64,000 bases of DNA, from assembly GCA_964505635.1 (NCBI GenBank), contig CAZDIP010000004.1, forward strand, positions 7,198 through 71,197, given 5' to 3'. This DNA is from an uncultured Candidatus Saccharibacteria bacterium. Lineage in GTDB: Bacteria > Patescibacteriota > Doudnabacteria > UBA920. The translations under genes were made by a program, and so were the position numbers. The notes under the pieces were generated by a model. That model searched no databases, had not been told where the DNA came from, and saw only the letters and a program-made list of their open reading frames with translations. This document shows positions 6,547 to 60,154 of this stretch, piece by piece (within the stretch, counting starts at the first letter, position 1; each line of letters starts with the position of its first letter).

Positions 6547-6852
6547 ATGAAAGTATTTGATGAATTAACAGGCGGAGTATATAGAAAAGGCGAATCGAGA
6601 GAAAGTTTGCTAAAAAGAGCCAAGGAAAAATTTCCGGATCAATTTTCTAAAATAGACTCGTTAAAAGAATTTTATTTTGACCCTATTTTAAAAGAGAGAT
6701 TTTTAGATTTAGAGACCAGCCTTATGCAGTGTGTGGAAAACGGATACCAACACAGGGAACTCTCAGAAATGCTTAATGAGTGGGAAAAAGAGTATGAATT
6801 TTTAAAAACACATGCAAAGCGACTTGATTCAAATTCTCAAAAAGCGGCTTAA
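6547..6852 (+). CDS. Hypothetical protein (101 aa)
   Basis: ORF track only; overlaps the start of the next gene by 41 nt. Confidence 0.35.
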   Translation: MKVFDELTGGVYRKGESRESLLKRAKEKFPDQFSKIDSLKEFYFDPILKERFLDLETSLMQCVENGYQHRELSEMLNEWEKEYEFLKTHAKRLDSNSQKAA

Positions 6853-8011
6853 ACATCCAATCTTAATTAAGAAAAAAGAAAACCTGCTGTATTTAACCGG
6901 CAGGAGCTTTGATTACAGGGCGGAGGAATATCTGTTAATTTTACCCCTCACCCCCACCCTCTCCCACAAGGGGAGAGGGGGAGATAGTGTGATTGGGTTT
7001 GGCAGCGGGCTTGAGCAGATAGATTGGGTCAAAAAGTCAGATAGGCTAAAGAACATCGGCCAATATTTAAAAGGTTATAAACAGTTGGATATTGAGTACG
7101 GGTTTACTTATGGGGAAGGAGAATATTTGAAATATAAGATTTCCTCCTTCGCTAAAGCTATGGCGGACAAGTCAGATTTAGGATATAAGATTTTGGTGAA
7201 ACCGGAAAGAAGTTTGGTTGATGTTATGAGGCAGATAAAAAGCATGGAGGAACTGTCTAAAATAAAAAAATCAATGCAGATTGTAGAGAAAGTATTTGCG
7301 CTTGTAAGAAAAGAAGTTAAAAAATCGGGGATGACGGAGAGAAAATTGGCTGATTTTATTACCAAGACTGGTTATAAATTTGGCGCACACGATGTTTCTT
7401 TTCCAGCAATTATAGCAAGCAGGGCAAATGCTGCTATACCTCACCATGTCCCATCAAACAAGTTTTTAAAAGCGGGGGAAAGCATAATTATAGATTTTGG
7501 TTTTAAGTACAAAAATTACTGCAGCGACTTTACGCGTACGGTGTTTTTAAAAAAAGTGCCCAAAAAATTGGAAATTGCCTATAATCAAGTAGAAAAGGCG
7601 TATAATGGAAGTATGGAGTATATCTCAAATCCATCCCGAGCGCGGCCGAGGGATCCCTCAAAACAAGAAAAAGGGATTCTTCCCCCGCATCAAGTGCGGG
7701 GTCTGAATGGTAATACAATTACCGGTAATGATGTTTATCAAAAAGTTGTTGATATTTTGGCTGAAAAAAAATTAGACAAATATTTTATTCATTCTTTAGG
7801 CCATGGTACGGGTTTGGAAATTCACGAATTGCCCAATCTTTCGCCCGACTCAAAAGATGAACTTAAAAATGGAATGGTTTTTAGCATTGAACCGGGAGTG
7901 TATATCCCTAAATTAGGTGGTATAAGAATTGAAGATTTGGTATATTTACAAAATGGCAAAGTTAATAAATTTATTAATGTTTCAGCGAAACTAAAGGATA
8001 ATATTTTATGA
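6812..8011 (+). CDS. pepP: Xaa-Pro aminopeptidase / M24B family metallopeptidase; contains two repeat-derived in-frame segments
   Basis: Creatinase-like N-domain, then the M24 catalytic core (HDVSFPAIIASRANAAIPHH...DFGFKYKNYCSDFTRT...HSLGHGTGLEIHE...EPGVY...RIEDLV). Repeat copies lie in frame at 6944-6984 and 7631-7710. Confidence 0.85.
   Translation: MQSDLIQILKKRLKHPILIKKKENLLYLTGRSFDYRAEEYLLILPLTPTLSHKGRGGDSVIGFGSGLEQIDWVKKSDRLKNIGQYLKGYKQLDIEYGFTYGEGEYLKYKISSFAKAMADKSDLGYKILVKPERSLVDVMRQIKSMEELSKIKKSMQIVEKVFALVRKEVKKSGMTERKLADFITKTGYKFGAHDVSFPAIIASRANAAIPHHVPSNKFLKAGESIIIDFGFKYKNYCSDFTRTVFLKKVPKKLEIAYNQVEKAYNGSMEYISNPSRARPRDPSKQEKGILPPHQVRGLNGNTITGNDVYQKVVDILAEKKLDKYFIHSLGHGTGLEIHELPNLSPDSKDELKNGMVFSIEPGVYIPKLGGIRIEDLVYLQNGKVNKFINVSAKLKDNIL
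6944..6984. repeat. Family-2 palindromic element (ccctcacccccaccctctccc-acaa-ggggagagggggaga), in frame inside pepP
   Basis: Shares the ctcccacaaggggaga hairpin core with the rpsG copy and the ccctcacccc / gggggaga ends with the nfo copy. Confidence 0.75.
7631..7710. repeat. Family-1 repeat copy B plus adjacent ccccgca-tcaagt-gcgggg hairpin, in frame inside pepP
   Basis: ccatcccgagcgcggccgagggatccc is ~85% identical to the intergenic copies. Confidence 0.75.
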
Positions 8012-9548: not shown

Positions 9549-10493
9549 GTGCTATCTATTGGCTGTCATGTTAGCGCCGCTGGAGGAGTCTGGAACGCGC
9601 CTAAAAATGCGGCTAATTTGGAATGCGAAACTTTTCAAATTTTTACCAGGCCGCCTATGGGCGGACCAGCGCCTAAAATAGATGAAGAAGCAGCGGACAA
9701 GTTTAAGACCGAGATGGAAAAGTATAAGTTTACAGACTTCGTTATTCATTGCCCTTATATTGTTAATTTTGGTTCTGCTAAAAAACCTACATATCACGGC
9801 TCTATTGGTATTGTTTCCGAAGAACTTAAACGGGCAAATAGTTTGGGAGCAAAATTGGTAATGACCCACTTAGGAAGCTTTAAGGACTTAGGGCAAGAAA
9901 AAGGCATGAAGCAGACGCAAAAAGGTTTTGTGGAAGTTTTGGAAAAATATGAAAAGGCATCAAAGAACCCAAAAACCGAATTTTTGCTGGAAATAGCAGC
10001 CGGTAGTGGGGAAGTTATTGGCGACACTTTTGAAGAATTGGCGGAGCTTATGGAACCCTTAAAGAAATTTAAAACTTTCGGGGGAATTTGTTTTGACACC
10101 CAGCATGCTTTTTCAAGCGGTTACGACATTAGAGATAAAAAATCTGTTATAGAGACATTTAAAAAGTTTGAAAAAGTAATAGGCCTTAAGTGGCTTAAAA
10201 TGTCGCACATTAACGACTCCAAAGTGCCTTTGGGCGGCAAGAAAGACAGGCATGAGCATATTGGCGATGGGGAAATAGGGAAAAAGGGGTTTGAGGCGCT
10301 GATTGGATATTTTGAAACCCTCACCCCAAAAACCCTCTCTACCCCTCGGCTTCGTTCGGGGCATCAACGCCAGGCGGGGGAGAAAAATAATGTTGCTTTC
10401 GGCGGCTTTCCCTTGATTCTTGAGACAGAGCATGATAAAGTCAAAAAAGATATAGAAATATTAAAAAATATAAGAAATAAAATTTATGTTTAA
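9549..10493 (+). CDS. nfo: Endonuclease IV (AP endonuclease, TIM-barrel) with a ~28-aa repeat-derived in-frame insertion near the C-terminus
   Basis: GTG start; MLSIGCHVSAAGG...HCPYIVN...MTHLGS...DTQHAFSSGYD...DRHEHIGDGEIG...PLILET. Insertion TLTPKTLSTPRLRSGHQRQAGEKNNVA relative to E. coli Nfo. Confidence 0.85.
   Translation: MLSIGCHVSAAGGVWNAPKNAANLECETFQIFTRPPMGGPAPKIDEEAADKFKTEMEKYKFTDFVIHCPYIVNFGSAKKPTYHGSIGIVSEELKRANSLGAKLVMTHLGSFKDLGQEKGMKQTQKGFVEVLEKYEKASKNPKTEFLLEIAAGSGEVIGDTFEELAELMEPLKKFKTFGGICFDTQHAFSSGYDIRDKKSVIETFKKFEKVIGLKWLKMSHINDSKVPLGGKKDRHEHIGDGEIGKKGFEALIGYFETLTPKTLSTPRLRSGHQRQAGEKNNVAFGGFPLILETEHDKVKKDIEILKNIRNKIYV
10317..10386. repeat. Family-2-related element inside nfo, in frame
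   Basis: accctcaccccaaaaaccctctct...cgccaggcgggggaga. The internal ccaggcgggg also resembles the intergenic hairpin at 36795-36815. Confidence 0.65.
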
Positions 10494-10641: not shown

Positions 10642-10827
10642 ATGAGCGGTACTATAAGTTTAGAAAAGATTATAGAAGTTATTGAAGCTTCCGAACTTGA
10701 CCCAACTATTAAGGAGATTTTAGTGAGGGATTTAAAAAGTGAAGGCCTTACTGAGTTTTTGGAAGAACAAATTAAAGCTTATTGCGATAAAGCCATTGCT
10801 ATTTTAGAAAAACGTAAAGGCGAATAA
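10642..10827 (+). CDS. Hypothetical small protein (61 aa)
   Basis: ORF track. Confidence 0.35.
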   Translation: MSGTISLEKIIEVIEASELDPTIKEILVRDLKSEGLTEFLEEQIKAYCDKAIAILEKRKGE

Positions 10828-24515: not shown

Positions 24516-25541
24516 ATGGATTCTATTGTCAGTCCGCAGTCAAATATAACCATTCAGTCTTTGGATGATTTGCAAAGTCCCATATCTCAGAAAAACCAGA
24601 CTCCTGTCCCGTCAAACGCTCAAACAGTTGCCATAAGCCAGGATGTAAATTATGAGGCGCCTTCTTTGGTCGGCGAGCAAGTTCCTCAGCCCGCGCCGGT
24701 TCTAGAAAATCCGGACAGGGTTTCTTACGCCGACGCGCAAATTCAGGAAATAGAAGTTTCTAAAATTCAGCCCAATCCTTTCCAGCCCAGAAAGGTTTTT
24801 GAGCCTAACGCCTTAAAAGAATTAGCCGACTCCATAAAAGAGCATGGGGTAATTCAGCCTTTGGTAGTTATTAAAACCGAGCTTGGCTATGAAATTGTGG
24901 TCGGGGAAAGGCGTTTTCGGGCTTCTCAGTTAGCCGGAATGGAAAAAGTGCCGGCAATTGTTAAAGACAGCATGGTTGACCAGACCAAGCTAGAGGTGGC
25001 ATTAATAGAAAACATACAGCGCAAAGAGCTAAACCCCATAGAAGAGGCCATGGCTTACGACCGGCTTATGAAGACTTTTCATATGACTCAGGAAGAAGTG
25101 GCTAAAAAAGTCGGTAAAAGCCGTCCGGCAGTGGCTAACACGGTCAGGTTGTTGAATTTGCCTGCGGAAATCCAGCGCGCGGTCATAGAGGGAAAAATTA
25201 TGGAAGGCCATGCCAGGGCGGTTTTAGGGCTCGGGGATACAGAAAAAATGATAGCTTTATACAAGCAGGTGGTGGAAAATGGTTGGAACGTGCGGCAGGT
25301 GGAGCAAAAGGTGAGGGAGTTTACCTTAAAAAAACAAATGGATGCGGCCATGCCGGATCCAAAACTAATGGCTTTGGAAACCGAATTAAGGGTTAAGCTG
25401 GGTACGCAGGTAAAAATTCAAAAGCAGGGGCAAAGCGGCAAAATAACAATAGAATTTTTTAGTGAAGAAGAGTTAAATGACATTGTGAATAAAATGGCCA
25501 GTCAGCAAAATTCTGGCGGCGAAGGTTACTTAACAGTTTGA
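24516..25541 (+). CDS. parB: ParB/Spo0J family chromosome partitioning protein
   Basis: ParB box GERRFRA, HTH region, N-terminal low-complexity extension; 341 aa. Confidence 0.88.
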   Translation: MDSIVSPQSNITIQSLDDLQSPISQKNQTPVPSNAQTVAISQDVNYEAPSLVGEQVPQPAPVLENPDRVSYADAQIQEIEVSKIQPNPFQPRKVFEPNALKELADSIKEHGVIQPLVVIKTELGYEIVVGERRFRASQLAGMEKVPAIVKDSMVDQTKLEVALIENIQRKELNPIEEAMAYDRLMKTFHMTQEEVAKKVGKSRPAVANTVRLLNLPAEIQRAVIEGKIMEGHARAVLGLGDTEKMIALYKQVVENGWNVRQVEQKVREFTLKKQMDAAMPDPKLMALETELRVKLGTQVKIQKQGQSGKITIEFFSEEELNDIVNKMASQQNSGGEGYLTV

Positions 25542-25693
25542 CATATTTCATTTTTTATTTTATAATTTTTTTAATGCGAAGAAAAACTAACAACCAAATT
25601 AATTTCCTACTTAAGGTTTTGGTTAAGCCCGTGCTTTTTACACGCGCAAAGCGGCAGTTTGGTAATTAGTAAGAATGCAAAAGAATTCAAACC

Positions 25694-25720
25694 AAACCCG
25701 CCGTAAGAAGCGGGTTTTTT
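25694..25720 (+). terminator. Rho-independent terminator after parB (aacccgc-cgtaagaa-gcgggtt + TTTTTT)
   Basis: 7-bp stem plus T-run. Confidence 0.7.
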
Positions 25721-25956
25721 AAGGGGTTAGTGCTTGCGGAAATGTAAAAAAGTTTATTTTATATTTTCGCAAGCGCAAGCTTGCAAGGTATGGGTGGTCG
25801 GTTGAGCCCGCGCAGGTTCCCGATAAGAAAATTTCGTTTTCCGAACTCTCCTTTCAGTCGGTCGGTTGTATCATGACCGGGAAACAAGATTTTGAAAACC
25901 ACCCAAAAAGTTTTAGGTCTGCCATGCGGCAGACCATCCACGCAGAGGAGAAAAAG

Positions 25957-26187
25957 ATGGCTGCAGTAGTAGTAGTCGCCCTCAGGCGTCCGCCTGAGGA
26001 AGATAGTTCCCCAGAATTATGCTGGGGGTGCGAGAGTCGTCTTGTTCCGGTAAATACAAAGACTTTTGGCCTCTGTCCGAAATGCCTTTTTGAAGGCTCA
26101 CCTAAGCTTCAAAAGAGTATTTATACAGACCCGGAGTTAGGAGGCCACAGCCTCAGTTGTTTTGGTGGCGACAAAGTTGATAATTAG
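25957..26187 (+). CDS. Possible small zinc-ribbon protein (76 aa; CWGC...CPKC)
   Basis: ATG with GGAGAAAAAG 5' of it; lies in a GC-elevated, otherwise non-coding unit. Could instead be part of a structured RNA. Confidence 0.25.
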   Translation: MAAVVVVALRRPPEEDSSPELCWGCESRLVPVNTKTFGLCPKCLFEGSPKLQKSIYTDPELGGHSLSCFGGDKVDN

Positions 26188-26380
26188 GAGGAGATGGCTA
26201 GCAAGTTTACCAGGCCGCTAGGCTGGAAACTAAAAGGTGAGCGGCAAACCGCAAAAAGCCTTGCTGGCTAAACAATATAAACGGCCATTTTTGGCCGGGC
26301 GGAAAGAAAGTCAGATACCCGACAAACAACTTAGCTTAGTTTGGTTGTTGCAATCATAAAACTTTCACCGCTGTTTGGTA

Positions 26381-26449
26381 GCCCGAGAGTTTTGTTTCGC
26401 GCTTTCGTAAAAAAGAGCGCTTAAACAGAATTCTCGGGCCTGTTTTTTG
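26381..26449 (+). terminator. Large hairpin (cccgagag...ctctcggg with inner gcgct/agcgc stem) followed by TTTTTT
   Basis: Seen directly; closes the 25.73-26.45 kb unit. Confidence 0.5.
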
Positions 26450-26499
26450 CCAAAAGTTTTACTAAATTTAAAGCCGTGAATTTAGTAAACTAAGAATTA

Positions 26500-26528
26500 T
26501 TGAAAAATAAAACCTTTTTTGTTAAAAT
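26500..26528 (+). promoter_or_regulatory. Sigma-70-type promoter TTGAAA-17-TAAAAT upstream of tRNA-Pro
   Basis: -35 26500-26505, -10 26523-26528. Confidence 0.5.
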
Positions 26529-26699
26529 AGTCTAGTTAGCGGGATGTGGCCCTGCTAGTAATTTGCTTACAACAAATACTACGGGGTAAATATAGTGGCA
26601 GCCCGTCTAGTGCCATTTTAATAAACATGCCTTATTGATCGGGCTTGTGGTACGCCGGTAGTACGCGCCCACTTGCTCTGTTAAATTTTTGCCCCTTTG

Positions 26700-26773
26700 C
26701 GGGATGTAGTATAGTGGTAGTACGCGTCCATGGGGTGGATGTAGTCTGGGTTCGATTCCCAGCATCCCGACCA
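26700..26773 (+). tRNA. tRNA-Pro (anticodon GGG), C1:G72 pair, A73, CCA encoded
   Basis: Acceptor cgggatg/catcccg, D-stem gtat/gtac, anticodon stem cgtcc/ggatg with loop auGGGgu, T-arm ctggg-ttcgatt-cccag; 74 nt. Confidence 0.88.
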
Positions 26774-36687: not shown

Positions 36688-36703
36688 GTTAAGATAAACT
36701 TAA

Positions 36704-36738
36704 GAGACTCTTCTGCCAGGGGCAGAAGAGTCTCTTTT
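36704..36738 (+). terminator. Rho-independent terminator (agagactcttctgcc-aggg-gcagaagagtctct + TTTT)
   Basis: Perfect 15-bp stem. Confidence 0.85.
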
Positions 36739-36945
36739 GCTAGTTTGACATTTTAGCTCTAGTTGGGTAAAATAAGAATAATTGAATAAGAAACCCCCCG
36801 CCCAGGCGGGGAATTACTCAATTTGTCGATGTGTTTGAGAAGTTAATCCTAAAGGTTTCAGGATAGTATCGAACGCACGAAGTAGCAAAAATCCAAAGTT
36901 TTGCGCGTGGATTTTTTTGTTGCTTGGAATAATAATTTAAGTAGT

Positions 36946-37560: not shown

Positions 37561-38157
37561 ATGCCAAGAAAATCACGTTCATACGACAAACACACTCCCG
37601 ATCCGGATCCAAAATACGGTTCGGTTAAATATGCTAAATTTATTAACTATTTAATGGAGCGCGGCAAAAAAAATGTAGCCCGCAAGATTTTTTACGATGC
37701 CTTGGAAATAGTGGGGGAAAAGGCGAAAGATTTAGCTAAATCTGCGCCGGTTGCTTCAAAGACCCCCTCATCTGCCGCGTCTAAAGACGCGGCACCTTCT
37801 CCCACAAGGGGAGAAGGAAATAAGGAAAAATCTTTGGACGGAAGACAGGTTTTTGATATAGCCTTAAAAAACATAGCGCCGATTATGGAATTAAAGTCCC
37901 GCCGTATTGGCGGAGCTAACTATCAGGTGCCTATGGAAGTTATGGAACCGCGCAAAACCACTCTTGCCATGCGCTGGCTTTTGATTGCCTGCCGTGCGAA
38001 AAAAGGCGCCCGGATGGCCGAAAAGTTGGCCGCTGAAATTATGGAAGCCTTTAACAAACAAGGCGCGGCTATTAAAAAACGCGAAGATGTTCACAGGATG
38101 GCAGAAGCCAACAAAGCTTTTGCTCACTTTGCTAGGTTTGGGAATAAGAGGAGATAA
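37561..38157 (+). CDS. rpsG: 30S ribosomal protein S7 with a ~38-aa repeat-derived in-frame insertion
   Basis: S7 core (KSRRIGGANYQVPMEV...KREDVHRMAEANKAFAHF). 198 aa versus ~156 typical; inserted segment LAKSAPVASKTPSSAASKDAAPSPTRGEGNKEKSLDGR is encoded by palindromic DNA. Confidence 0.93.
   Translation: MPRKSRSYDKHTPDPDPKYGSVKYAKFINYLMERGKKNVARKIFYDALEIVGEKAKDLAKSAPVASKTPSSAASKDAAPSPTRGEGNKEKSLDGRQVFDIALKNIAPIMELKSRRIGGANYQVPMEVMEPRKTTLAMRWLLIACRAKKGARMAEKLAAEIMEAFNKQGAAIKKREDVHRMAEANKAFAHFARFGNKRR
37775..37817. repeat. Family-2 element inside rpsG, in frame (hairpins gccgcgtc-taaa-gacgcggc and cttctccc-acaa-gggagaag)
   Basis: Seen directly; accounts for the S7 insertion. Confidence 0.8.
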
Positions 38158-59204: not shown

Positions 59205-59414
59205 ATGGCACACGGTGGGCATGGAGGAGAATCGCATAGTAAGTCTGGCGGTGGGGGCGGCTTTTTTCGTAGTATGGTTGAGGGTTTTGTGGATCCGGTT
59301 TCAGAGGCTATAGGCGGTAACGCCCAAAAAATAGTAAATAAGGAAATAAAAGGTTTAATTTCAACCGGCAAGGGTGGGGGTGGCAAGGGTGGGGGTGGTC
59401 ACGGACATCACTAG
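59205..59414 (+). CDS. Small glycine/histidine-rich protein (69 aa)
   Basis: MAHGGHGGESHSKSGGGGG...GKGGGGKGGGGHGHH; low complexity. Confidence 0.35.
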   Translation: MAHGGHGGESHSKSGGGGGFFRSMVEGFVDPVSEAIGGNAQKIVNKEIKGLISTGKGGGGKGGGGHGHH

Positions 59415-59425
59415 TTTAAAAATTC

Positions 59426-59524: not shown

Positions 59525-60154
59525 ATGGATAACGATAAACTTTCTCATTTGGCCATGGTTATGCAGATGCTGGATTCTGCTGAGAAAAATACTCAATCTG
59601 CCAAACAGCTTTTAAAAGATATTATAGGGGGTAAGGAAATTAAAACAGCTTATTCCGCGGTTTCCGCGCTTTCTGAAAAGGCGTCGACTTTTTCCGTTTC
59701 TGAAGGCGGAAAGGTGATTGAAGGCGTTTTTGACGGGCAAAATATGATAGGCCCGGACAAAAAGCAGTATCCGGTGCCGGCTAATTACGCTTCCAAGTCC
59801 AAATTGGTGGAAGGCGATGTGTTAAAATTAACTATTGCCGAAGACGGGTCTTTTATATATAAACAAATTGGCCCGGTTAACCGTAAAAAAATGCTCGGCA
59901 TTTTGGTAGTTGACGACAAGGGTGATTTTAGAGTCATGGCTGAAGGGAAACCTTACAAAGTTTTATTGGCCAGCTTAACTTATTTTAAATCTGAACCCGG
60001 AGACGAGGTTACTATTGTGGTGCCTGAAGATCAGGAAACTGACTGGGCGGCAGTGGAAAATGTTATAAAAAAGGGCACTTCCAGCGCTCATACCGATTTG
60101 GAAATGGGCGATTCAAAAAATAAAGTTTTGCTGGACGAAGACGAAGAATTATAA
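59525..60154 (+). CDS. Hypothetical protein (209 aa)
   Basis: ORF track. Confidence 0.45.
   Translation: MDNDKLSHLAMVMQMLDSAEKNTQSAKQLLKDIIGGKEIKTAYSAVSALSEKASTFSVSEGGKVIEGVFDGQNMIGPDKKQYPVPANYASKSKLVEGDVLKLTIAEDGSFIYKQIGPVNRKKMLGILVVDDKGDFRVMAEGKPYKVLLASLTYFKSEPGDEVTIVVPEDQETDWAAVENVIKKGTSSAHTDLEMGDSKNKVLLDEDEEL

What the first reader, a model, noticed from the sequence alone, without database searches (positions are those of the whole stretch)
10317..10386. ~28-aa repeat-derived in-frame insertion near the C-terminus of endonuclease IV
Relative to E. coli Nfo (…[22 protein letters not shown]…), this protein has TLTPKTLSTPRLRSGHQRQAGEKNNVA inserted just before the conserved PLILET strand. 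The encoding DNA begins and ends like the pepP element (ccctcacccc…gggggaga) and contains a GC hairpin resembling the intergenic hairpin at 36795-36815. The insertion is close to the metal-binding C-terminal region, yet the frame and motifs are preserved.
Basis: partly seen in the sequence, partly recalled or inferred. Interest (0 to 1): 0.6.

Follow-up and report, generated by a model that had tools for sequence, protein, structure and literature searches.

The report
Decayed palindromic repeat inside endonuclease IV
An apparently intact DNA-repair gene (endonuclease IV) of a Candidatus Doudnabacteria (CPR) bacterium carries, in frame, a decayed copy of a GC-rich hairpin/triplex-type repeat related to the E. 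coli BoxC element; it probably forms a floppy loop on the back of the enzyme, and the same repeats sit in other housekeeping genes of this lineage, including ribosomal protein uS7.

Summary
The nfo ORF (9549-10493, 314 aa) has all nine metal ligands and a confident Nfo TIM-barrel model. It carries about 27 extra residues (T257-A283, DNA about 10317-10406) between the last helix and strand beta8.

About 29% of the 119 closest homologues have no insert here. The rest carry 2-57 extra residues of very different sequence, and the states are scattered across the tree.

At DNA level the insert is a degenerate member of a dispersed repeat family. An intact copy has a pyrimidine arm, a variable hairpin H1, a CTCTCCC-loop-GGGAGAG hairpin and an AATAATGT tail. 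Intact copies sit at the same nfo site in relatives, in a 6-phosphogluconate-dehydrogenase-like gene (L116), and in this window's uS7 gene.

The simpler form matches the published BoxC/PIT/TMECO triplex motif and occurs in frame in pepP (6945-6979). I found 28 such motifs in 1.36 Mb of Doudnabacteria DNA, none in shuffles. Of these, 22 lie inside long ORFs, read in five of six frames. In E. coli the motif is strictly intergenic.

The window's nfo copy has lost one arm and no longer folds. It is most likely a tolerated, decaying selfish-repeat remnant translated as a disordered loop.

The parts
9549..10493 (+). nfo (endonuclease IV) ORF, 314 aa, apparently intact
   Evidence: Pfam PF01261; PDB Nfo hits; nine metal-ligand positions conserved (H67 H107 E148 D183 H186 H220 D233 H235 E292); AF2 pLDDT 88; Foldseek TM 0.89-0.91 (normalised to target) to 1QTW/1QUM/4HNO
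10317..10406 (+). in-frame repeat-derived insertion (residues about 257-286; net +25 aa relative to empty-site relatives)
   Evidence: pLDDT 52-69, no regular secondary structure except a 4-residue helix at 260-263
10318..10327 (+). pyrimidine arm CCCTCACCCC, identical to the outer arm of the pepP BoxC/TM element
10333..10340 (+). pyrimidine arm CCCTCTCT, the conserved left arm of the nfo-site element in relatives (CACCCTCTCT)
10341..10363 (+). remnant of variable hairpin H1 (ACCCCTCGG..CGGGGCA); homologous to GCCCCTCGG..CTCGGGGCA of L058 and L098; only CCCC/GGGG can still pair
10364..10375 (+). degenerate stretch (TCAACGCCAGGC) where intact copies have the second pyrimidine arm plus loop (L098: CCCTCCCC-ATCAACT); the arm is lost here
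10376..10383 (+). purine arm GGGGGAGA
10384..10406 (+). element tail AAAATAATGTTGCTTTCGGCGGC (peptide KNNVAFGG); part of the repeat unit, not of nfo
   Evidence: duplicated with the unit in the tandem copies of L058 and L124, and present with the element in a different gene in L116
6945..6979 (-). exact BoxC/PIT/TMECO-pattern triplex motif, in frame inside pepP (peptide PLTPTLSHKGRGG)
   Evidence: 1 match, 0 expected; pattern from PMC4666352
37764..37817 (+). intact twin-hairpin copy of the composite element, in frame inside rpsG (uS7), within a 36-aa insert
   Evidence: (DNA fold z -6.7)

Best explanation
The extra ~27 residues are the translated remnant of a small GC-rich repeat, not an evolved protein feature.

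The repeat family has three arms: two pyrimidine arms that are roughly mirror images (CCCTCTCT / TCTCTCCC) and one purine arm (GGGAGAGA). This is the layout of the BoxC/PIT/TMECO 'intrastrand triplex' motif. In the composite form an extra, variable-sequence hairpin (H1) is nested between the pyrimidine arms, and an AATAATGT(TGCCTTCGGC) tail follows.

A copy entered, or was generated in, the loop between the last helix and strand beta8 of nfo in an ancestor within Doudnabacteria. Only in-frame, stop-free versions in a structurally permissive loop survive. The site has since turned over quickly through loss, replacement, tandem duplication and decay.

In this genome the copy has lost its second pyrimidine arm and no longer forms the hairpins. 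It is now neutral or nearly neutral filler, translated as a disordered Pro/Ser/Thr/Gly/Lys/Arg-rich loop on the barrel face away from the active site, and the enzyme stays functional.

Shown: the insertion, DNA-level homology to other copies, dispersal to other genes and reading frames, patchy distribution, conserved catalytic residues, low model confidence in the loop, and loss of folding potential. Inferred: that it is translated, that it is neutral, and the direction of events. The mechanism by which such elements insert and excise is unknown; no transposase is known for BoxC.
For: Insertion and intact enzyme.

DNA homology with same-site inserts of relatives, sharing the backbone CACCCTCTCT-H1-CTCTCCC-loop-GGGAGAGA-AAATAATGT.

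Intact relatives fold as two adjacent hairpins (L002 z -4.75, L012 z -3.4, window rpsG z -6.7). The window nfo copy does not (z -0.23). L098 shows which arm the window copy lost.

The whole element, tail included, is in frame in a different gene (6-phosphogluconate-dehydrogenase-like, L116). It is also in rpsG of this window.

The canonical form matches the published TMECO pattern. There are 28 fuzzy matches in 1.36 Mb against 0 in 5 shuffles, and 22 of 28 are internal to long ORFs. Stop-free stretches of 150 codons or more cover 86% of this DNA. The motifs are read in 5 of 6 frame/orientation combinations. The same 15-mer CTCCCACAAGGGGAG is read as LSHKGR in pepP and SPTRGE in uS7.

About 17 distinct composite (arm + H1 + H2) elements were found against 0 in shuffles.

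Distribution is patchy. The nearest relatives of the window protein have no insert (P0005), a homologous insert (P0002) or an unrelated AT-rich hairpin (P0004). Outgroups are empty.

The interior of the insert is not conserved even against the 82%-identical P0002. Loop pLDDT is 52-69.

In-frame fusion of small repeats inside protein genes is an established phenomenon: RPE, Ogata 2000, reviewed in PMC3184786.
Against: There is no direct evidence of translation or enzyme activity.

The window copy is too degenerate to pass the TMECO pattern itself. Its membership rests on alignment to intact copies and on shared arms.

The tail 18-mer was found outside nfo only once in the metagenome scan; about 50 other hits were chance matches in unrelated DNA.

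The recurrence of related elements at exactly the same loop in distant branches could instead mean site-specific targeting, or selection for something at that site.

H1 stems differ on both arms between copies. This could reflect selection for structure rather than neutrality.

The NJ tree used for 'patchiness' is a quick distance tree of one protein, not a species tree.
Confidence: 0.75

Rival explanations
1. The loop is a lineage-specific, protein-level functional extension of Doudnabacteria Nfo (for example a partner- or DNA-contacting arm). Its GC-rich, repeat-like DNA is incidental.
For: About 71% of the 119 closest homologues carry at least 2 extra residues at this site, and 31% carry 11 or more. 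A KG(E)xNNVAFG-like motif recurs in 21 long inserts.
Against: 29% of close homologues, including the 76%-identical P0005, and all outgroups have no insert. Insert sequences are unrelated between sister lineages (AT-rich hairpins versus GC-rich elements). The same DNA occurs in other genes and other frames. The loop is low-confidence coil and lies on the N-terminal side of beta8, away from the catalytic and DNA-binding face (TIM-barrel topology, established knowledge).
Confidence: 0.08
2. The nucleic-acid structure itself (DNA triplex, G-quadruplex or hairpin, or an mRNA hairpin) is the selected feature. It could serve as a pause, stability or recombination signal inside the gene, and the peptide is a by-product.
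For: Intact copies in relatives and in rpsG form two near-perfect hairpins. H1 stems differ between copies yet stay complementary. TMECO oligonucleotides form stable triplexes in vitro and mark unstable loci in E. coli (PMC4666352). A hairpin/G-quadruplex switch has been proposed (PMC5100583).
Against: The window's nfo copy has lost one arm and folds no better than shuffled sequence, so any such function is gone here. Many relatives lack any element at the site. Per the introduction of PMC4666352, earlier work on PIT elements found no promoter or terminator activity. Perfect palindromes can also arise and be maintained by template switching without selection (inference).
Confidence: 0.08
3. 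The gene is a pseudogene, or the insert is an assembly or sequencing artefact.
For: Two relatives (L035, L067) show a frameshift at this very site.
Against: The window ORF is open from start to stop with all nine metal ligands. The identical protein is present on an independent Logan contig. Homologous in-frame inserts exist in dozens of independent MAGs and metagenomes. L035's record title (MFD04780.bin) suggests a Microflora Danica long-read MAG (the sequencing platform is from my own knowledge, not checked here) and its shift lies at a G/C homopolymer run.
Confidence: 0.03

Closest known systems
BoxC / PIT / TMECO intrastrand-triplex motif of E. coli and other Proteobacteria and Cyanobacteria (Bachellier 1990s; Hoyne/Maher 2000; Holder et al. 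2015, PMC4666352; Kaplan et al. 2016, PMC5100583)
   Same: Same arms and geometry: CCCTCNCCC-N3-6-GGGNGAGGG-N3-GGGNGAGGG. The pepP copy (6945-6979) and four copies in related loci match the published pattern exactly. The nfo insert shares the CCCTCACCCC and CCCTCTC arms and a purine arm. It is multi-copy and occurs in both orientations. I saw no flanking duplication or terminal inverted repeat in the copies aligned, though I ran no dedicated test, and I did not search for a transposase. It is associated with locally unstable, variable loci.
   Different: In E. coli all 23 copies are intergenic. Here 22 of 28 are inside long ORFs and in frame. The host is a CPR lineage; the pattern's 3610 matches were reported in 262 proteobacterial genomes, and other triplex motifs in cyanobacteria. 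The nfo-site form is a composite with a nested variable hairpin and a 3' tail. The window's nfo copy is degenerate and fails the pattern.
Rickettsia palindromic elements (RPE; Ogata et al. 2000; reviewed in PMC3184786)
   Same: Small dispersed palindromic repeats found in frame inside housekeeping protein genes of a reduced-genome bacterium. They are tolerated in surface loops without destroying the fold and are proposed to be selfish DNA that adds new peptide segments.
   Different: There is no sequence relationship. The elements here are shorter (about 35-90 nt against about 105-146 nt). They are triplex/mirror-repeat type rather than simple long palindromes. They show strong per-site turnover, with many unrelated inserts at the same loop.
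REP/BIME and MITE-type small repeats
   Same: Short GC-rich stem-loops, multi-copy, sometimes fused to ORFs.
   Different: No terminal inverted repeats or target-site duplication are evident at the nfo, pepP or rpsG copies (reading). No RAYT or IS partner was identified, and none was searched for systematically.

Membership tests
Endonuclease IV (Nfo; Pfam PF01261 AP_endonuc_2 TIM barrel) | Significant match to the family profile and to solved Nfo structures | tested here: met
   Pfam E 1.4e-34; PDB phmmer E 1.9e-41 to 1.2e-36; Foldseek TM 0.89-0.91 to 1QTW, 1QUM and 4HNO
Endonuclease IV (Nfo; Pfam PF01261 AP_endonuc_2 TIM barrel) | Nine ligands of the trinuclear metal site (E. coli H69 H109 E145 D179 H182 H216 D229 H231 E261) | tested here: met
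   They align to H67 H107 E148 D183 H186 H220 D233 H235 E292, all invariant in 40 relatives. The E. coli numbering and sequence are from memory.
BoxC / PIT / TMECO triplex motif | Sequence pattern CCCTCNCCC N3-6 GGGNGAGGG N3 GGGNGAGGG (PMC4666352) | tested here: not met
   For the nfo insert itself, only CCCTCACCCC, CCCTCTC and GGGGGAGA remain, with a 35-nt interior. The pattern is met by the pepP copy at 6945-6979 and by relatives' nfo copies (L015 at site S1; L008 at site S3, fuzzy match).
BoxC / PIT / TMECO triplex motif | Multi-copy and dispersed, far above chance | tested here: met
   28 fuzzy matches in 1.36 Mb against 0 in 5 shuffles
BoxC / PIT / TMECO triplex motif | Intergenic location (as in E. 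coli) | tested here: not met
   22 of 28 are internal to ORFs of 150 aa or more, against 23 of 23 intergenic in E. coli
BoxC / PIT / TMECO triplex motif | Forms an intrastrand triplex (CD/NMR) | not testable with these tools
   Only Watson-Crick folding could be computed
RPE-like in-frame palindromic elements | Dispersed repeat present in frame inside otherwise conserved protein genes, with empty orthologous sites | tested here: met
   Seen in nfo, pepP, rpsG, a gnd-like gene and others. Empty sites exist in relatives.
RPE-like in-frame palindromic elements | Sequence homology to RPE-1 to RPE-8, length about 105-146 nt | not tested
   No RPE sequences were compared. Lengths here are about 35-90 nt, so the relation is functional analogy only.
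MITE | Terminal inverted repeats plus target-site duplication | tested here: inconclusive
   None is apparent at the boundaries in filled-versus-empty alignments, but boundaries are blurred by decay
REP/REPIN | Cognate RAYT (Y1 transposase) in the genome | not tested
   Only 64 kb of this genome was available and no systematic search was done

The most novel reading that the evidence does not exclude
Doudnabacteria (and perhaps other CPR bacteria) may have an active, so far undescribed process that inserts, swaps and excises triplex/hairpin cassettes at particular surface loops of essential proteins (Nfo, PepP, uS7 and others). Candidates are a transposase-independent or structure-directed mechanism, for example one acting on non-B DNA during replication or repair. 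On this reading the BoxC-type motif is a genuinely mobile or self-templating element. It would be a major source of new peptide sequence and of protein length variation in these reduced genomes, and the recurrent same-site occupancy would reflect targeting rather than only a survival filter.
Probability: 0.15. Interest if true: 0.8.

Novelty: new variant of a known kind. Interest (0 to 1): 0.55.

Why it matters
BoxC/PIT/TMECO motifs have been known for 30 years, but their function and their means of spread are still unknown, and they have been described as strictly intergenic. Here the same motif, and a composite derivative, sit inside essential genes of a CPR lineage. There are many orthologous filled, empty and replaced sites across MAGs. 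That gives a natural data set for reconstructing how such elements enter and leave DNA. It also extends the Rickettsia 'selfish DNA in protein genes' phenomenon to a second, unrelated group of reduced-genome bacteria.

In practice, it explains much of the length heterogeneity of Doudnabacteria proteins: Nfo runs 282-401 aa and uS7 174-225 aa. It also warns annotators that these segments are repeat-derived filler, not domains.

Tried and rejected
1. Generic repeat finding on the whole window did not reveal the family. The copies are too short and too divergent.

2. Folding the insert as RNA or DNA gave no significant structure.

3. Rfam at gathering thresholds over the window, and E-value mode on 25400-26750, returned nothing relevant.

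4. The right-hand tail looked nfo-specific within the 1.36 Mb of related genomes. The metagenome scan of the 18-mer gave 53 loci. About 50 were chance matches in unrelated DNA, 2 loci were nfo, and 1 (L116) was the whole element in another gene. That single hit is what shows dispersal.

5. I planned a covariance model of the composite element but abandoned it. MAFFT could not align the variable hairpins in register. I used an explicit architecture search with shuffle controls instead.

6. An intein, intron or translational-bypass reading was considered and rejected. The segment is only about 80 nt, it is in frame and stop-free in nearly all relatives, and I saw no resemblance to intein or self-splicing-intron features in the sequence (not tested with a dedicated tool).

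7. Literature searches for CPR/Patescibacteria in-frame palindromic insertions found nothing on this phenomenon.

Full report
**1. What is at the coordinates**

The ORF 9549..10493 (+) encodes a 314-aa protein.
- It is an endonuclease IV: Pfam AP_endonuc_2 at E 1.4e-34, and PDB Nfo chains 3AAL, 2X7V and 1QTW at E 1e-41 to 1e-36.
- An AlphaFold2 model built on 40 relatives is confident (mean pLDDT 88.3, pTM 0.88).
- The model superposes on E. coli and T. maritima Nfo with TM 0.89-0.91 normalised to the target.

BLASTP against E. coli Nfo leaves a single 27-residue gap immediately before [13 protein letters not shown].

The nine metal ligands of E. coli Nfo align to H67, H107, E148, D183, H186, H220, D233, H235 and E292. 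All are invariant in 40 relatives.

The extra peptide TLTPKTLSTPRLRSGHQRQAGEKNNVA is residues 257-283 (DNA 10317-10397). In the model the insert region has low confidence (10-residue-block mean pLDDT 52, 60, 69 over residues 261-290). It is coil apart from a 4-residue helix at 260-263, and it lies between helix 244-256 and strand 288-291. It enters beta8 from its N-terminal end. By TIM-barrel topology (established knowledge, not measured on the model) this is the face opposite the catalytic and DNA-binding face.

The identical protein is also encoded on an independent Logan contig.

**2. Relatives**

The 120 best homologues are from Candidatus Doudnabacteria or Patescibacteria MAGs and range from 282 to 401 aa. 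The length variation is concentrated in three hot spots.

- 34 have no insert
- 48 have 2-10 extra residues
- 37 have 11-57 extra residues

The states are scattered on a quick NJ tree. The window protein's nearest neighbours have no insert (P0005, 76% identity), a homologous long insert (P0002, 82%) or an unrelated short insert (P0004). Deeper Doudnabacteria and the outgroups (Yanofskybacteria, Paceibacteria) are empty.

Even against P0002 the interior of the insert is not conserved. This pattern fits rapid turnover of non-essential DNA. It does not fit a conserved protein feature.

**3. The DNA**

I fetched 76 related genomic loci, 1.36 Mb in total with the window, and read the site in each.

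Long inserts share one architecture:
- CACCCTCTCT
- a hairpin H1 whose stem differs between copies: GTCCCGC/GCGGGAC, GTCGCGT/ACGCGAC, GCCACCC/GGGTGGC, ACCCG/CGGGT
- (A)TCTCTCCC-loop-GGGAGAGA
- AAATAATGTTGCCTTCGGC

Intact copies fold as two adjacent perfect hairpins: L002 z -4.75 and L012 z -3.4. L058 and L124 carry two diverged units in tandem, each with its own tail, so the tail belongs to the repeat unit.

The window copy aligns to this backbone. Its layout is:
- CCCTCACCCC (10318-10327)
- AAAAA
- CCCTCTCT (10333-10340)
- an H1 remnant homologous to that of L058 and L098 (10341-10363)
- a degenerate stretch where L098 has the second pyrimidine arm CCCTCCCC (10364-10375)
- GGGGGAGA (10376-10383)
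- the tail (10384-10406)

Having lost that arm, it no longer folds better than shuffled sequence (RNA z +2.07; DNA z -0.23).

Short inserts in other relatives are unrelated AT-rich palindromes or tandem repeats, for example TGCAGAATgcagATTCTGCA and CCCCCTCTTTtctAAAGAGGGGG. L014 keeps only ACCCTCTCT next to the empty-site sequence, which may be an excision footprint.

**4. It is a dispersed repeat, not an nfo peculiarity**

- CCCTCACCCC-N1-6-CCCTCTC occurs twice in the window (pepP and nfo), with 0 expected.
- The 15-mer CTCCCACAAGGGGAG occurs in pepP and in rpsG, with 0.02 expected. It is read in two different frames, LSHKGR and SPTRGE.
- A metagenome scan for the tail 18-mer returned mostly chance hits. 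It also returned one locus (L116) where the complete element, tail included, lies in frame in a 6-phosphogluconate-dehydrogenase-like gene, with peptide SPEALSPARQAGGTLSPGGESNNVAFGA.
- An explicit search for 'pyrimidine arm + hairpin + pyrimidine/purine hairpin' found about 17 distinct elements in the related DNA and none in three shuffles. A second subfamily is CCACCTCCC-H1-CTCCTCC-loop-GGAGGAG. Some copies are intergenic, others are in frame in nfo site S1, pepP site 2, rpsG and other genes.

**5. Identity of the simple form**

A literature search on the arm sequences led to Holder et al. 2015 (PMC4666352). That paper defines the BoxC/PIT/'TMECO' intrastrand triplex motif as CCCTCNCCC N3-6 GGGNGAGGG N3 GGGNGAGGG. 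Kaplan et al. 2016 describes the same sequences as a G-quadruplex/hairpin switch.

The pepP element matches this pattern exactly on the minus strand at 6945-6979. Four copies in fetched loci also match exactly, including one inside the nfo gene of L015 at hot spot S1.

Allowing one mismatch per arm gives 28 motifs in 1.36 Mb and none in five shuffles. Of these, 22 lie inside stop-free stretches of 150 codons or more, with at least 15 codons on each side. Such stretches cover 86% of this DNA, so genes are not avoided. The motifs are read in five of the six frame/orientation combinations.

In E. coli the motif is always intergenic. In the library I could search, I found no description of such elements in CPR genomes or inside genes. 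In-frame fusion of other small repeats is well known: RPE in Rickettsia, and others reviewed in PMC3184786.

**6. Independent replicate in pepP**

pepP is syntenic with nfo in 38 loci; 31 full-length copies were aligned with the window's. Both of its insertion sites are hypervariable in the same way. They carry TM-type peptides (PLTPALSRKGRGG at the window's site in L016) and other repeat-derived peptide families (xINTDxxRINTD; SLRG...LPRPSDALGARNDK).

**7. Mechanism and confidence**

Best explanation (confidence 0.75): a selfish or by-product GC-rich repeat of the BoxC/triplex type lodged in a permissive loop. It was kept only because it is in frame and harmless, and it is now decaying. It is translated as a disordered loop on the back of the barrel.

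How these elements insert and excise is not known. I saw no terminal inverted repeats or target-site duplication, and I did not search for a transposase.

Rivals:
- a protein-level functional loop (0.08)
- a selected nucleic-acid structure (0.08; hard to hold for this copy, which no longer folds)
- a pseudogene or artefact (0.03)

Two relatives have a frameshift at the site. One of them, L035, has its shift at a G/C homopolymer run, and its record name suggests a long-read MAG.

**8. Verdict**

The hairpin resemblance to 36795-36815 does not.

The individual insertion is a modest, probably neutral feature. What lifts the interest is the context: a BoxC/TMECO-type motif family living inside essential genes of a CPR lineage, with rapid same-site turnover. 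I rate it a new variant of a known kind, with interest 0.55.

Noticed in passing
window 37561-38157 (rpsG/uS7), insert about 37729-37836, hairpins 37764-37817: uS7 is 198 aa, with a 36-residue insert (residues 57-92) relative to all solved uS7 structures. Its DNA holds two perfect adjacent hairpins (GCCGCGTCTaaAGACGCGGC and CCTTCTCCCacaaGGGGAGAAGG; DNA fold z -6.7), with the same composite architecture as the nfo-site element. In the 69 best homologues printed (all 120 are at least 174 aa, against 156 in E. coli) there is a 20-60 aa hypervariable Ala/Pro/Lys-rich insert here, some with TM-type peptides.
   Followed up: partly
window 6812-8011 (pepP), site 1 6945-6979 and site 2 about 7625-7712: pepP carries an exact BoxC/TMECO-pattern motif in frame (site 1). 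It also has a second GC-rich in-frame insert with hairpin CCCCGCatcaaGTGCGGGG at 7683-7701. In 31 syntenic relatives both sites are hypervariable and hold several other repeat-derived peptide families (xINTDxxRINTD; SLRG...LPRPSDALGARNDK).
   Followed up: partly
window about 9957-9974 (nfo residues about 137-142) and relatives' nfo site S1 (about residue 61-63): The same nfo has a second small insert (KASKNP) at hot spot S2. Relatives carry up to 54 extra residues at S1, including exact TM motifs (L015 10190-10222) and the CCACCTCCC/CTCCTCC subfamily in reverse orientation (L018).
   Followed up: partly
L116 4521-4642 (minus strand): A metagenomic 6-phosphogluconate-dehydrogenase-like gene carries the complete composite element, with the NNVAFGA tail, in frame. 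It is the only copy of the tailed form found outside nfo.
   Followed up: yes
L035 about 10720-10790 and L067 about 10730-10760: Two relatives' nfo genes change reading frame exactly at site S3. In L035 the shift lies at a G/C homopolymer run in what appears (from the MFD record name) to be a long-read MAG, so a sequencing error is likely. L067 is unexplained.
   Followed up: partly
window 25541-26600: About 1 kb has no ORF of 110 aa or more and contains three perfect GC-rich hairpins (25695-25716, 25916-25935, 25980-25999), between a 341-aa ORF and tRNA-Pro. A permissive Rfam search found nothing credible.
   Followed up: partly
window 59358-59415: G-rich tandem GGCAAGGGTGGGGGT x2, just upstream of the ORF starting at 59525.
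   Followed up: no
window 36703-36735 and 36795-36815: Two intergenic hairpins lie downstream of the 631-aa ORF. The first is a long perfect stem followed by a T run and looks like a terminator.
   Followed up: partly
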